This document shows positions 3,184 to 9,195 of a stretch of 64,000 nucleotides of DNA, piece after piece. The translations under genes were made by a program, and so were the position numbers. The first letter of the stretch is position 1. Each line of letters starts with the position of its first letter. This DNA is from Candidatus Hodarchaeota archaeon (GTDB taxonomy: Archaea; Asgardarchaeota; Lokiarchaeia; Sigyniarchaeales; SOKP01), in assembly GCA_048886685.1 (NCBI GenBank), contig JBHLKM010000012.1, positions 17,576 to 81,575 of the forward strand, given 5' to 3'. The notes beneath the pieces are model-generated. The model saw only the letters and a program-made list of their open reading frames with translations, was not told the DNA's origin and did no database searches.

Positions 3184-5511
3184 TTGAAACTATTTATGGT
3201 TGATTTTGAAGAATTTTTACGTTATCTAAAGTCTCAGGATTATTACCATAACCAAATATATCATATTGAACATATTCCTGAACACAGAGCTCAATATGGG
3301 GGTCTAAAATCATCCTTAAGCGCCCGTCTTCAACGATGGTTAGAGAATAACAACATTAAACTATGGCGTCACCAAGCAGAAGCTATAAATCTAATTCGCA
3401 AAGGCACGAACACTGTTATTGTAACTTCTACCGCTTCTGGAAAATCTCTTTGCTATAATCTTCCTGTATTACAATCAATACTTGAGGAACCAAAAACTAC
3501 AGCTCTCTATGTCTTCCCTACTAAAGCTTTAGCTAGAGATCAATTTGTTGTTCTCTCTCAGCTTTTAGCGGGAACAAAAATAAATCAAAATAGGATTGGT
3601 GTTTATGATGGGGATGTAGATGCCAATGAAAAGAGATTCATATTAAATAATGCTAATATAATAATTACAAATCCTTATGGGCTACACTTTTATTTACCTT
3701 GGTTTAAACAAAAGTGGCGAAGAATCTGCCAGAATCTAAAGTATATTATTTTAGATGAAATTCATATTTATCGAGGGATTTTCGGTTCTAACTTCGCTCT
3801 ATTGCTCAGAAGATTAAAAAGAATGCTTGGTACGTATAATATAAAACCTCAATGGATCTTATCCAGTGCTACAATTAATAATCCTAAAGGCTTCTCCGAA
3901 AAATTAATAGGAGAAGAGGTTGAGGTTGTAGATAGAGATGATTCTCCCTCAGGACCTAAAAAAGTAATCTTATGGGATTTGCCGTATGACGAAATTTCAA
4001 AGAAGTATCGTTCACCACACCAAGAAACTAAAAATCTTTTTCTCAGTCATTTAAAATTTAAAGATGGGATACAAACATTAACCTTTACCTTATCAAGAAA
4101 AATGGCTGAATTGCAGGCAATATGGGCTAGAGAAGCTATCCCTGTTTTAAAAGATAAAATCTTTAGTTATCGAGCTGGGATTAGTAAATCTAAAAGGAGA
4201 GAAATAGAACAAAATTTCAAAAATAAAAAGATTTTAGGAATAAGTTCTACTAATGCTCTTGAATTAGGAATAGATATAGGCTCTTTAGATGCTACGATAA
4301 GTTCTGGATTTCCAGGAACGATCTCGAGTTTCAAACAACAAATAGGACGCTCTGGGAGAGGGACCGATCTCTCCGTCTCAACTCTTATCCCCATGCCTGA
4401 TCCTTTAGATTTCTTTTATGTCCATAATCCTGATCAGTTATTTGGACCAATCCAAGAAGAAATACTCATAACTTTAAATAATAAATACATTATAAAAAAC
4501 CATTTATGCTGTGCCTCAAAAGAAATTCCTATTAAAATTAATGAGTATGAGAAATTTGGAATTCTCGATAAAGAACTATTTATAGAATATTTGGAAGACT
4601 TGATTTCAGAATCTTTACTTATGAAAAGAGGAGATCGATATTATTGGAATAGCGATTTCTTTCCAAATGAAATATATGGATTAAATGATATTTCAACCAA
4701 AAGTTATAAAGTCATATTAAGATCGGGTTCAAATGAAGAACTCTTAACAGTTGAGGATGAAAGTTTTGTATTTCGAGATTTACACCCAGGTGCTGTATAT
4801 CTTTACGAGGCTGAATCATATATCGTAGATGAGCTTGATTTAGAGGAAAGAAGTGTATATCTTTCTAAATCGAATGTAGATTTTTACACGCAATCTTTAA
4901 AACATACAGATATTACCCCTCTTGAGGTACTATATGAAAATAAAAGTGGAATAAAAAGCAGAATTAATTCATATTTTGGTATTGTAAAGGTAGAACATGA
5001 ATATTATTCCTATAAAGTTGTTGATACCATAACACAGGAGCTACGCTCGAGACATCCATTAGAGGATATTCCAATCATTACATTTGAGTCAATGGCTTTA
5101 TGGTTTACAATACCTTTTGATTACCAAAAAGAATTAGAATTGGGAGGATTTGATCTTGGTGGGACTATCCATGCTATAGAACATGCTATGATAGCGATGT
5201 CTCCAGCTTTAGCTCAGATTTCAAGATGGGATTTAGGGGGCTTTTCCATAGATTTCGATCCTATAAAGCAGCAGCCAATAATTTACATTTATGATGCTTA
5301 TAAAGGAGGTATTGGAATATCAGAAATGCTATATTTTAATATTAATGAATTAATGAAAAATGCATATAAATTAATTAAATCTTGTAGTTGTAATTCAAAA
5401 AATGGCTGTCCTGGTTGTATAATGTCTCCAAAATGTGGAAATTCTAACGATCCATTAGATCGCGCTGGAGCCTTATTTTTATTGAATAAGCTTATTGGTG
5501 AAAATCAATAA
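3184..5511 (+). CDS. DEAD/DEAH-box helicase with C-terminal DUF1998 Zn module (YprA/MrfA/Hrq1-like)
   Basis: TASGKS, DEIH, SAT, ALELGIDIG, QQIGRSGR, C-terminal CxC...GCPGC...PKC. Confidence 0.92.
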   Translation: MKLFMVDFEEFLRYLKSQDYYHNQIYHIEHIPEHRAQYGGLKSSLSARLQRWLENNNIKLWRHQAEAINLIRKGTNTVIVTSTASGKSLCYNLPVLQSILEEPKTTALYVFPTKALARDQFVVLSQLLAGTKINQNRIGVYDGDVDANEKRFILNNANIIITNPYGLHFYLPWFKQKWRRICQNLKYIILDEIHIYRGIFGSNFALLLRRLKRMLGTYNIKPQWILSSATINNPKGFSEKLIGEEVEVVDRDDSPSGPKKVILWDLPYDEISKKYRSPHQETKNLFLSHLKFKDGIQTLTFTLSRKMAELQAIWAREAIPVLKDKIFSYRAGISKSKRREIEQNFKNKKILGISSTNALELGIDIGSLDATISSGFPGTISSFKQQIGRSGRGTDLSVSTLIPMPDPLDFFYVHNPDQLFGPIQEEILITLNNKYIIKNHLCCASKEIPIKINEYEKFGILDKELFIEYLEDLISESLLMKRGDRYYWNSDFFPNEIYGLNDISTKSYKVILRSGSNEELLTVEDESFVFRDLHPGAVYLYEAESYIVDELDLEERSVYLSKSNVDFYTQSLKHTDITPLEVLYENKSGIKSRINSYFGIVKVEHEYYSYKVVDTITQELRSRHPLEDIPIITFESMALWFTIPFDYQKELELGGFDLGGTIHAIEHAMIAMSPALAQISRWDLGGFSIDFDPIKQQPIIYIYDAYKGGIGISEMLYFNINELMKNAYKLIKSCSCNSKNGCPGCIMSPKCGNSNDPLDRAGALFLLNKLIGENQ

Positions 5512-5668: not shown

Positions 5669-6199
5669 TTGTCAAACTCAGATTTTACATTTAAGATAGT
5701 TATTTTTGGGGATCCTCAAACAGGAAAAACTACACTTACACATAGATTTTTGACTAATATGTTTAAGGAAGATTTTCAAATGACTCTCGGCGTGGATTTT
5801 TTACTAAAAATGGTTAAATTGCAAGGTGAGAATATAAAACTACAGATTTGGGATTTTGCGGGAGAGGAGAGATTCAGATATCTTTTCCCATCTTATATCA
5901 GAGGTGCTAACGGGGGCATTTTTATGTATGATATTACTAATTATAGATCTCTTGCTCACGCAGATGAATGGTTTGAAATTGTTGAAAGTGAGATTGATTA
6001 TGATTTACCTATAATTTTTGTAGGCGGAAAGACCGATTTGATACATCTCAAAGAAGTTTCAACAAGAAAGGCAAAAGAAGTTGCAACATCAAAAAAAGCT
6101 AATGTTTATATAGAGTGCAGCTCAAAAACTGGAGAAAATGTTCAAATCATTTTTGAACTACTAACAGAACTTATTTTTAAGAATTTAAAAAGACCTTAA
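5669..6199 (+). CDS. Rab-like small GTPase
   Basis: G1 GDPQTGKT, G2 TLGVDF, G3 WDFAGEERF, G4 GGKTD, G5 ECSSK. Confidence 0.93.
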   Translation: MSNSDFTFKIVIFGDPQTGKTTLTHRFLTNMFKEDFQMTLGVDFLLKMVKLQGENIKLQIWDFAGEERFRYLFPSYIRGANGGIFMYDITNYRSLAHADEWFEIVESEIDYDLPIIFVGGKTDLIHLKEVSTRKAKEVATSKKANVYIECSSKTGENVQIIFELLTELIFKNLKRP

Positions 6200-6453: not shown

Positions 6454-7005
6454 ATGAATCAGGTATTTGGGTTGTCAGATTCTTATACATTTAAAATAGT
6501 CATATTCGGAGACTCTCAGACGGGAAAGACTTCTCTAACTCACAGATTTTTAACGAATCTTTTTAAGGAAGATATCCAGATGACTTTAGGGGTAGATTTT
6601 TTACATAAAGAAATTGAAATGAATGGTGAAAATGTAAAACTACAGATTTGGGATTTTGCTGGTGAGGAAAGGTTCAGATTTCTTTTTCCCTCTTATATCA
6701 GAGGAGCTAATGGAGCAATCTTTATGTATGACATTACTAATTATGGCTCTTTGGCTCACGTAGATGACTGGTTTGAGATTTTTGAAAAAGAAATTGATTA
6801 TGACTTACCCATAATCTTTGTTGGTGGAAAAACTGATTTAATACATCTCAAGGAAATTTCAACAAGAAAAGCAATGGAAGTTGCGAACTCAAAAAATGCC
6901 GATGGTTTTATAGAGTGTAGTTCAAAAACAGGAGAAAATGTCCATAAGATATTTGACTTATTAACAAGATTAATCCTAACAGATAAATTAACTACTGAAG
7001 TATAA
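6454..7005 (+). CDS. Rab-like small GTPase, tandem paralog (start may be TTG at 6472)
   Basis: Same motifs as, and highly similar to, 5669-6199. Confidence 0.93.
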   Translation: MNQVFGLSDSYTFKIVIFGDSQTGKTSLTHRFLTNLFKEDIQMTLGVDFLHKEIEMNGENVKLQIWDFAGEERFRFLFPSYIRGANGAIFMYDITNYGSLAHVDDWFEIFEKEIDYDLPIIFVGGKTDLIHLKEISTRKAMEVANSKNADGFIECSSKTGENVHKIFDLLTRLILTDKLTTEV

Positions 7006-7751: not shown

Positions 7752-8498
7752 ATGATTATTAGGGATGAAACTAAATTGTATGGTTTTAAAAGCCTGATGT
7801 ATCGTAGTGGTTGGCTCTACAATGCAATAACAAGAAGACTTTACGACCAAGATACAAAGTTTTTAATAATTGCTAAATTGATAGGTAAAGGACCAAAAAG
7901 AGTTTTAGATTTACCGTGCGGTACAGGATATTTGATGCGTTTCTTGCATCCTTTGATTGAATATGAAGGTGTTGATCTAAATTATCGATTTTTGAAAAGA
8001 ATTAAGAACAAAGAATTAAAAAAGCGGAATATAAAATTGAAAAAAATTGTATTAAAACAAAAAGATATTTTCGATTTTCAAGATTGCTTAGGAGAAAATT
8101 TTGATGTCATTGTAATCTCTGATATTTTACACCATATTTATCCTAGACATGTTGATTTAATTAACATGGCAAAGAAATCCGCGCGAAAAGTAATTATTTG
8201 CGAACCTTATGCTGTAAAACCAAAAGAAATCAATGCTAGAGATAAGTTATTTAAAATCATCGTTTATTTTGGGAAATTTTTACCATTATCTATCTACAAA
8301 ATAATTGATTTTCTTTTCCTAGATAATGATGGGATTAACCCTTATCATAAGAGAGATAAGTGGAGTTTTGATTTTAAAGGCCTTAAAGAATTTTACAAAA
8401 CCATGGGATTCAATCCAAGTTTTTCTTTAAGAGACGAATATATAGGGGTTTGGGAATCAACAGCTCCCCTATATTTAGAAAGCTCTTCAAATAAATAA
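7752..8498 (+). CDS. class I SAM-dependent methyltransferase
   Basis: VLDLPCGTG, GVD, FDVIV, ILHH. Confidence 0.85.
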   Translation: MIIRDETKLYGFKSLMYRSGWLYNAITRRLYDQDTKFLIIAKLIGKGPKRVLDLPCGTGYLMRFLHPLIEYEGVDLNYRFLKRIKNKELKKRNIKLKKIVLKQKDIFDFQDCLGENFDVIVISDILHHIYPRHVDLINMAKKSARKVIICEPYAVKPKEINARDKLFKIIVYFGKFLPLSIYKIIDFLFLDNDGINPYHKRDKWSFDFKGLKEFYKTMGFNPSFSLRDEYIGVWESTAPLYLESSSNK

Positions 8499-8538
8499 TA
8501 TAAAATACATGAATTAATTTATATTATTAACAAAGATA

Positions 8539-9195
8539 TTGAGGACTCCTTTGAAATTAACTCTCAGTTTGTGGGATATAGCTGGTCAAGAACGATTTGA
8601 GTTCTTTAAAACAGATTTTTTTAGAGGGATTGCAGCAGTTGGCTTAGTATTTGATTTATCTCGCCCTGATACTTTTGATTTAATAGAAGAATATTTTGAT
8701 GACATACGAGACCGGTCCGGAAATATTCCAATTATTCTGGTGGGTAATAAAAATGATTTGAAAAAGGACATTGGCGAAACAGTTCCTCGTGAAAAAATAA
8801 TTCAAATGGTAAATCAATATAATCTTTTTGAATATATTGAAACCTCAGCATTAGAAAGGAAAAATGTTGAAAAATTGTTTTATCGGTTAGCTCTAACAGC
8901 ATTATTAGATATAAAACCAAGGTTAGGAGAGGTTATTGATACACATCACTTCAGGTTCAAAATATTACTTGTCGGAGCAGCTGCAGTTGGAAAATCTTCG
9001 TTGATTGGTTCATTTGTTAAGAAGGAATTTGAAGAATCGTATAAATTGACTGTAGGCTTAGACTTTATGATTCAAGATCTTGAAATTGAAGAAGAGGATA
9101 TTCCTAAAGAAACTCACGAGTTAGTTAAAAATTCAGTTAAATCCTATAAGAAACGGATTAAAAAAATACATAAATTAGAAGAATCACTTCACTAG
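8539..9195 (+). CDS. circularly permuted Rab-like small GTPase (G3-G4-G5-G1-G2)
   Basis: WDIAGQERF, GNKND and ETSA come before GAAAVGKSS and TVGLDF; in-frame stop at 8515-8517 leaves no room for an upstream G1. Confidence 0.88.
   Translation: MRTPLKLTLSLWDIAGQERFEFFKTDFFRGIAAVGLVFDLSRPDTFDLIEEYFDDIRDRSGNIPIILVGNKNDLKKDIGETVPREKIIQMVNQYNLFEYIETSALERKNVEKLFYRLALTALLDIKPRLGEVIDTHHFRFKILLVGAAAVGKSSLIGSFVKKEFEESYKLTVGLDFMIQDLEIEEEDIPKETHELVKNSVKSYKKRIKKIHKLEESLH

What the first reader, a model, noticed from the sequence alone, without database searches (positions are those of the whole stretch)
8539..9195. Stand-alone circularly permuted Rab-like GTPase (G3-G4-G5-G1-G2)
Seen: the protein starts at strand beta3/G3 (LSLWDIAGQERF) and runs through G4 (GNKND), G5 (ETSA) and helix 5. 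A ~14-aa linker (DIKPRLGEVIDTHH) then leads to beta1/G1 (KILLVGAAAVGKSS, 8974-8997) and G2 (TVGLDF), and a ~35-aa charged helix ends the chain. Each motif occurs exactly once and is intact, the new termini fall in the beta2-beta3 turn, and an in-frame stop at 8515 rules out a missed N-terminus. Known: YlqF/YawG cpGTPases use G4-G5-G1-G2-G3. The G3-G4-G5-G1-G2 order (cpRAS) was described in multidomain eukaryotic proteins. A single-domain archaeal version appears unusual and would break the backbone link between switch I and switch II (inference).
Basis: partly seen in the sequence, partly recalled or inferred. Interest (0 to 1): 0.85.

Follow-up and report, generated by a model that had tools for sequence, protein, structure and literature searches.

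The report
Circularly permuted Asgard Rab-like GTPase
This Asgard archaeal gene encodes a real, strongly conserved Rab-like GTP switch whose two halves are swapped; the same swap is known from the eukaryotic cpRAS domain, but this archaeal family appears to have arisen separately, was ancestrally tied to the membrane by its own tail, and was not found in the papers searched.

Summary
Confirmed. Window 8539/8551-9195 encodes a G3-G4-G5-G1-G2 small GTPase with each motif once and intact. It is no chimera or truncation: orthologs occur in 65 of 398 genomes of the phylum, all in one order of Promethearchaeota (47/51 of the genus), under purifying selection, at a syntenic locus. AlphaFold gives one closed G domain (pTM 0.84). 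Basal and sister-family members carry a C-terminal transmembrane anchor, some also a predicted beta-sandwich domain; the window's anchorless form is derived and ends in a polybasic amphipathic helix. Trees reject an exclusive clade with eukaryotic cpRAS (p-AU 3e-5) but not a sister position to cpRAS plus Ras (p 0.18). Both halves score best against one canonical Asgard subfamily whose genes sit as in-frame tandem pairs, in one genome separated by a single stop codon: a plausible precursor state. Best reading: a membrane-directed GTP/GDP switch that arose by duplication, fusion and trimming, independently of cpRAS. Nucleotide binding and partners are untested; reads could not be checked. The scan noted this family before (47 findings, at least 31 genomes). 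New variant of a known kind.

The parts
8551..9195 (+). Circularly permuted Rab-like GTPase gene, 214 aa from the probable TTG start (alternative start 8539, 218 aa)
   Evidence: 120 listed homologs at 73-92% identity
8515..8544 (+). In-frame TAA (8515-8517) closing the frame upstream; AT-rich spacer with TTTATA (8518-8523) and GAGG (8541-8544), possible promoter and ribosome-binding signals
   Evidence: read from the sequence; G-rich boxes precede the start in several orthologs; function inferred
8554..8622 (+). beta3, G3 and switch II at the new N-terminus; Gly12, catalytic Gln13, Arg15 and Phe16 invariant
8746..8775 (+). G4 (NKxD) followed by the DLxxxIG signature shared with the closest canonical Asgard subfamily
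8839..8907 (+). G5 (ETSA) and helix 5
8908..8949 (+). Joint between the old C- and N-termini: conserved PRLGE loop plus beta-hairpin leading into beta1
8950..9015 (+). beta1, G1 P-loop (8974-8997) and helix 1
9040..9084 (+). Switch I with G2 Thr167 (Tyr164, Thr167, Asp171 invariant) and beta2, the new end of the G domain
9106..9189 (+). C-terminal amphipathic, polybasic helix (net charge +3 to +8 per 18 residues, hydrophobic moment 0.46-0.60); in basal orthologs it continues into a linker and a transmembrane anchor that this copy lacks
3184..5511 (+). MrfA-like DEAD helicase gene, synteny marker upstream of the permuted gene in both families that carry it (context, not a shown partner)
7752..8498 (+). 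SAM methyltransferase gene directly upstream, frequent neighbour within the family (context, not a shown partner)

Best explanation
A functional, monomeric Rab-like GTP/GDP switch with a permuted chain. Shown by sequence: the chain runs beta3-to-helix5, a conserved hairpin joint, then beta1-helix1-beta2, with all nucleotide, Mg and catalytic residues kept. Predicted: the two parts close into one ordinary G domain. Inferred: it binds and slowly hydrolyses GTP like Thor-Rab, and exposes conserved switch I and II surfaces to an effector, under GEF/GAP control. The new C-terminus leaves beta2 into a helix that ancestrally led to a transmembrane anchor, so the family acts at the cell membrane without prenylation; the window's subclade lost the anchor and probably uses the basic amphipathic helix for reversible membrane contact (about even odds). 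Origin (inferred): fusion of two adjacent in-frame paralogs of one Asgard subfamily, followed by loss of the outer halves, once, within one order, independently of eukaryotic cpRAS.
For: Conservation: 120 listed homologs all permuted with one P-loop; 65/398 genomes, one gene each, no stops inside; pN/pS about 0.06-0.13 in both halves against the two closest orthologs; G1-G5 census over 82 sequences. Fold: pLDDT 85, pTM 0.84; residues 1-119 match RhoA at Z 13.4, rmsd 1.5, 119 aligned, and residues 13-177 match YlqF in sequence order at Z 10.8, rmsd 3.1, 139 aligned, which places the C-terminal part inside the same domain. Anchor: hydrophobic tails in all sampled orthologs from other genera and most sister-family ones; anchorless forms nested inside the genus, apart from one sister-family protein. 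Origin: the family is one clade (100/99) on the Rab-like side of a 96/93 branch, cpRAS falls inside Ras (100/99); exclusive clade with cpRAS rejected, p-AU 3.3e-5; both halves rank the same canonical subfamily first, 158-182 bits against at most 104 for cpRAS; that subfamily occurs as in-frame neighbours, one TAA apart in one genome. Thor-Rab hydrolyses GTP and lacks prenylation cysteines (PMC10933270).
Against: Switch I is unresolved in both models (pLDDT under 50 at 160-169), and AlphaFold may favour the familiar fold. The sister group in the tree is weakly supported (86/42). A position as sister to cpRAS plus Ras (p 0.18) or with the foraminiferan permuted protein (p 0.07) is not rejected. 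No effector, GEF or GAP gene is consistently linked. The gene is patchy outside the genus and was not found in the closed genomes of the sister family, so it is dispensable at order level. The window's copy has no membrane anchor.
Confidence: 0.72

Rival explanations
1. Shared origin with cpRAS: the permutation happened once in an Asgard ancestor, and eukaryotic cpRAS descends from it (canonical Ras would then be re-permuted or derived from a tandem ancestor).
For: Same cut site. A PRxG motif follows helix 5 in both cpRAS and this family. Holding the family together with cpRAS plus Ras is not rejected, p-AU 0.18.
Against: cpRAS carries Ras signatures (TIE in G2) and nests in Ras at 100/99; the exclusive clade is rejected. 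The PRxG lies five residues later and is followed by a hairpin that cpRAS lacks. The post-G4 glycine signature is in 22/23 family members and 0/17 cpRAS. No match outside one order, including all other Asgard families searched.
Confidence: 0.05
2. Folded but not a cycling switch: a constitutively nucleotide-bound or very slow scaffold, because cutting the beta2-beta3 turn uncouples the switches.
For: Backbone link between the switches is gone (sequence). The G5 lysine is Leu in the window's family. Anand et al. argued this permutation impairs folding (as cited in PMC2430557).
Against: Catalytic Gln, G2 Thr, P-loop Lys and G4 Asp are invariant in 82 sequences down to 37% identity, as are surface residues of both switches. 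The P-loop type is also found in canonical relatives.
Confidence: 0.15
3. Domain-swapped oligomer: the C-terminal beta1-helix1-beta2 part completes the G domain of a second chain.
For: The topology allows it in principle (inference); not tested here.
Against: The joint is short, fixed in length and modelled with confidence as an intrachain hairpin; five monomer models score pLDDT 82-85.
Confidence: 0.06
4. Artefact or decaying remnant: assembly chimera, or truncated tandem double GTPase.
For: The genome has 84 canonical GTPase domains and 8 adjacent same-strand pairs that could confuse assembly or recombine. Reads were not available.
Against: Same junction in 65 independently assembled genomes, two of them single-contig; open frames start just before beta3; no longer relative with this junction carries a second G domain; purifying selection.
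Confidence: 0.01

Closest known systems
cpRAS domain of eukaryotic CPRas proteins (Elias and Novotny 2008, PMC2430557)
   Same: Motif order G3-G4-G5-G1-G2; cut in the beta2-beta3 turn; helix 5 joined to beta1; intact G motifs.
   Different: cpRAS is RAS-family (TIE motif), called eukaryote-specific, fused to VWA or alpha-2-macroglobulin-like regions, with a joint about 12 residues shorter. This one is Rab-like, archaeal, 214 aa or tail-anchored, and does not group with cpRAS.
Canonical Asgard Rab-like GTPases (Thor-Rab, PDB 7EZB, PMC10933270)
   Same: Rab-like G2 and G3 motifs, catalytic Gln, no C-terminal cysteines; E 3e-24 to 7EZB; nearest relatives in tree and profile scores are canonical Asgard paralogs.
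   Different: Permuted order; hairpin joint; extra C-terminal helix; ancestral transmembrane anchor, whereas Thor-Rab has a truncated C-terminus and showed no membrane localisation.
YRG / YlqF-YawG circularly permuted GTPases (YlqF, YqeH, RsgA, Nog2)
   Same: Helix 5 joined to beta1; structural match over 120-143 residues in sequence order.
   Different: They are cut after G3 (G4-G5-G1-G2-G3), are ancient ribosome-assembly factors with extra domains; sequence scores are far below family cut-offs.
Tail-anchored Ras-superfamily GTPases such as Miro (own knowledge)
   Same: G domain held at a membrane by a C-terminal transmembrane helix after basic residues (anchored orthologs).
   Different: Not permuted, eukaryotic; analogy only, no relationship tested.

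Membership tests
cpRAS | Motif order G3-G4-G5-G1-G2 | tested here: met
cpRAS | RAS-family signature, TIE in G2 | tested here: not met
   G2 is T[VI]G[LV]D in 80 of 82 sequences, never TIE
cpRAS | Monophyly with cpRAS domains | tested here: not met
   p-AU 3.3e-5, LG+G4, 66 rows, 167 columns; sister position to cpRAS plus Ras not rejected
cpRAS | Fusion to VWA or alpha-2-macroglobulin-like regions | tested here: not met
   214-aa protein; long orthologs give no such Pfam hit
YRG/YlqF cpGTPases | Order G4-G5-G1-G2-G3 | tested here: not met
   G3 is N-terminal
YRG/YlqF cpGTPases | Family HMM cut-off (YqeH, YlqF) | tested here: not met
   31.6 of 297 bits and 17.5 of 208 bits
Ras-superfamily small GTPases | G1-G5 motifs intact | tested here: met
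   Pfam Ras 132 bits, cut-off 21.6
Ras-superfamily small GTPases | One complete G-domain fold | tested here: met
   by prediction only:
Ras-superfamily small GTPases | GTP binding, hydrolysis and nucleotide-dependent switching | not testable with these tools
   needs purified protein
Eukaryotic Rab | C-terminal cysteines for geranylgeranylation | tested here: not met
   the protein has no cysteine
Eukaryotic Rab | RabF motifs | tested here: inconclusive
   best PDB sequence hits are Rab11 and G2/G3 are Rab-like, but RabF1-5 were not scored one by one
Asgard Rab-like GTPases | Descent from the Asgard Rab-like radiation | tested here: inconclusive
   profile scores of both halves and a shared signature point to one canonical Asgard subfamily; tree support for that grouping is only 86/42
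Asgard Rab-like GTPases | Canonical G1-to-G5 order | tested here: not met

The most novel reading that the evidence does not exclude
The permutation is itself the mechanism: with the beta2-beta3 turn cut, nucleotide-driven movement of switch I and beta2 is passed directly to the C-terminal helix and membrane tether, giving an Arf-like, prenylation-free membrane switch that works from the C-terminus, a third way for Asgard small GTPases to address membranes.
Probability: 0.15. Interest if true: 0.85.

Novelty: new variant of a known kind. Interest (0 to 1): 0.58.

Why it matters
The G3-G4-G5-G1-G2 order was once argued to be unfoldable and, in the papers searched, has only been described by homology modelling inside 800-3900 aa eukaryotic proteins. 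A 214-aa soluble natural version makes folding, hydrolysis and switch coupling directly testable. It shows the permutation is not eukaryote-specific and has probably arisen more than once, with a plausible precursor gene arrangement still visible in related genomes. The anchored orthologs bear on an open question in eukaryogenesis: how Asgard Rab-like GTPases reach membranes without prenylation. Limits: the topology has a precedent, the family is confined to one order, and it is probably not ancestral to any eukaryotic protein.

Tried and rejected
Literature: full-text searches for permuted Asgard or Lokiarchaeal GTPases found no description; three Asgard papers read by keyword do not mention a permuted GTPase. 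The library lacks most subscription papers, so 'undescribed' is provisional. Foldseek and the Atlas shape search aligned only about 120-140 residues because they follow chain order; not evidence against closure. The first, shallow model was weaker (pTM 0.71). An 892-aa hit first taken for CPRas was a tandem Rab. Longer-protein search gave only multi-Rab arrays and N-terminally extended canonical GTPases. 320-aa hits in the sister family are canonical GTPases with a roadblock-like N-terminal domain, not permuted. The two canonical GTPase genes 2-3 kb upstream (5669, 6454) were considered as the duplication source; they are not among the nearest relatives. The beta-sandwich domain of long orthologs was not found in this genome with one query and has no Pfam name. 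The sigma-70 promoter scan is uninformative for an archaeon. No complex prediction was run, as no binding partner is claimed.

Full report
Observation. The frame 8539-9195 (+) is open and reads G3, G4, G5, G1, G2, each once; an in-frame TAA at 8515 closes it upstream. Pfam Ras matches in two stretches, and the alignment to Rab11 shows them reversed: query 5-114 to chain 59-166, query 130-185 to chain 2-57. Among the genome's GTPase hits (84 full canonical domains) it is the only ORF with reversed halves. Many close orthologs start four codons later, so TTG 8551 (214 aa) is the likelier start (inference). Residue numbers below count from it.

Is it real? All 120 listed homologs (73-92% identity) are permuted and have one P-loop. 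Searches of 398 genomes of the phylum found it in 65: the window's genome, 47 of 51 others of the genus, 61 of 132 of the family, 3 of 14 of a sister family, none elsewhere. It is one gene per genome there; one metagenome contig has two adjacent copies. Named records are mostly Promethearchaeota (Lokiarchaeia); a few Thor or Hod labels at up to 92% identity are probably mislabelled bins (inference). A MrfA-like helicase gene lies upstream in both families, which fits vertical descent. Both halves are under purifying selection, pN about 0.04 against pS 0.29-0.63 for the two nearest orthologs. Chimera and truncation are therefore rejected without reads, which were unavailable. The three closed genomes of the sister family gave no full-junction match; one has the length I recall for Lokiarchaeum ossiferum, so a cultured host may not exist.

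Anatomy. With 82 aligned sequences AlphaFold gives pLDDT 85 and pTM 0.84; only switch I (160-169) is under 50. Residues 1-119 superpose on the beta3-to-helix5 part of RhoA (Z 13.4, rmsd 1.5, 119 aligned). Residues 13-177 align in chain order with natural helix5-to-beta1 permutants (YlqF Z 10.8, rmsd 3.1, 139 aligned; a pre-60S GTPase Z 12.3, rmsd 2.8, 143 aligned), so in the model beta1-helix1-beta2 completes the same domain. Invariant residues include Gly12, Gln13, Arg15, Phe16 (switch II), Lys67 and Asp69 (G4), Ser99, Gly142-Lys148 of the P-loop core, and Tyr164, Thr167, Asp171 (switch I). The joint has an invariant Gly126 and forms a hairpin that extends beta1. After beta2 comes a 28-residue amphipathic, basic helix.

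The family is ancestrally anchored. All sampled orthologs from other genera of the family, and some of the same genus, continue from that helix through a charged linker to a basic patch and one terminal hydrophobic helix. Many sister-family members are 430-755 aa, with a low-complexity linker, a predicted beta-sandwich domain of no named family and two hydrophobic helices. Rooted on the sister family, the anchorless forms of this family, including the window's, are nested within the genus, implying one or two losses there. 'Stand-alone' is true of this gene but is a derived state.

Origin. I retrieved eukaryotic CPRas proteins by reference, restored canonical order in silico for tree building, and compared them with Ras, Rho, Rab-type and Asgard domains. 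The family is one clade (100/99); cpRAS lies within Ras (100/99); a 96/93 branch separates the two sides. Forcing the family and cpRAS together costs 110 log units (p-AU 3.3e-5). Forcing it beside cpRAS plus Ras is not rejected (p 0.18), so a deep link is disfavoured, not excluded. Profiles of the N-half and the C-half each rank the same canonical Asgard subfamily first, and that subfamily shares a glycine signature after G4 that cpRAS lacks. Its genes occur as adjacent in-frame pairs in this genome and in relatives; in one, the pair is separated by a single TAA and seven codons. Fused tandem Asgard-type GTPases also exist. Loss of a stop, then loss of the first gene's beta1-beta2 and the second gene's beta3-helix5, gives the observed order. 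This route is inferred, and tree support for the exact sister group is weak (86/42).

How it most likely works. Shown: motifs, conservation, tail types. Predicted: one G domain. Inferred: GTP/GDP cycling with slow intrinsic hydrolysis, as measured for Thor-Rab (PMC10933270), and effector binding through the conserved switch surfaces. From general knowledge, beta1's start, helix 5's end and the beta2-beta3 turn lie at the same pole of a Ras fold, away from the nucleotide, which explains why the termini can move between them and why a tether still leaves from that pole. Asgard Rab-like proteins lack prenylation cysteines; a transmembrane tail is a direct substitute. The window's copy probably relies on its basic helix, but binding a partner or packing on the domain is equally open. 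No partner gene is consistently linked across both families.

Comparison and novelty. It works like a Rab-type switch and has the cpRAS topology, but fails cpRAS membership (no TIE motif, no VWA, not one clade) and YRG membership (other cut site). cpRAS was described as eukaryote-specific and only in large proteins (PMC2430557). No paper found describes an archaeal case. Earlier reports of this scan on other genomes reached the same reading; they are repeats, not independent support, and I had the anchor and independent-origin reading before consulting them. Verdict: new variant of a known kind, interest 0.58.

Noticed in passing
P0322 (EukProt, foraminiferan Bolivina argentea): A 243-aa Rab-type GTPase in G3-G4-G5-G1-G2 order followed by a stretch that recalls the start of a VWA protein (from memory; no family hit). 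It groups with unnamed Rab-type sequences (96/82), not with cpRAS or the Asgard family, though the latter is not rejected (p 0.07). Possibly a third permutation; single transcriptome record, may be a chimera.
   Followed up: partly
L082:1297-2394 and L083:1245-2354; G000 C11:107364-108632: Adjacent in-frame pair of canonical GTPase genes from the subfamily closest to the permuted family; in L082 only one TAA separates them.
   Followed up: yes
P0259, P0269; G000 C20:46447-48528: Single proteins with two Rab-like domains in tandem (369 aa; 355 aa, labelled Lokiarchaeota); an Atlas cluster of 85 such 369-aa archaeal proteins exists.
   Followed up: partly
G000 C2:39539-41571: Two adjacent canonical small GTPase genes whose products end in a hydrophobic helix, so other membrane-anchored GTPases exist in this genome.
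   Followed up: no
L021:2803-4953, L022:7259-9151, L073, L074, L075, L077: In most sister-family-type loci the permuted gene is followed by a convergent JAB/MPN plus TPR gene.
   Followed up: no
window 8917-8931 and cpRAS joints: A PRxG motif follows helix 5 in both cpRAS and this family, offset by five residues; convergence or chance, unexplained.
   Followed up: partly
L076:1730-3686: Two permuted paralogs side by side, both with a terminal hydrophobic helix.
   Followed up: partly
L003, L007, L008 gene starts: No ATG, GTG or TTG precedes beta3 in these orthologs; a G-rich box is followed by ATH codons, suggesting a non-standard start codon. L003 and L008 also have Glu in place of the G3 Asp.
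   Followed up: no
window 5669-6199 and 6454-7005: Two near-identical canonical Rab-like genes in tandem 2-3 kb upstream, with Glu in place of the catalytic Gln (DFAGEERF); not the closest relatives of the permuted gene.
   Followed up: partly
L001:7283-9334 and orthologs: A conserved 683-aa protein without a Pfam hit lies two genes upstream of the permuted gene in 12 of 20 loci but is absent at this place in the window.
   Followed up: no
L009 (G254 contig C223): The only hit among 42 genomes of its genus lies on a 4.9-kb contig and resembles the window genus type; possibly a misbinned contig.
   Followed up: no
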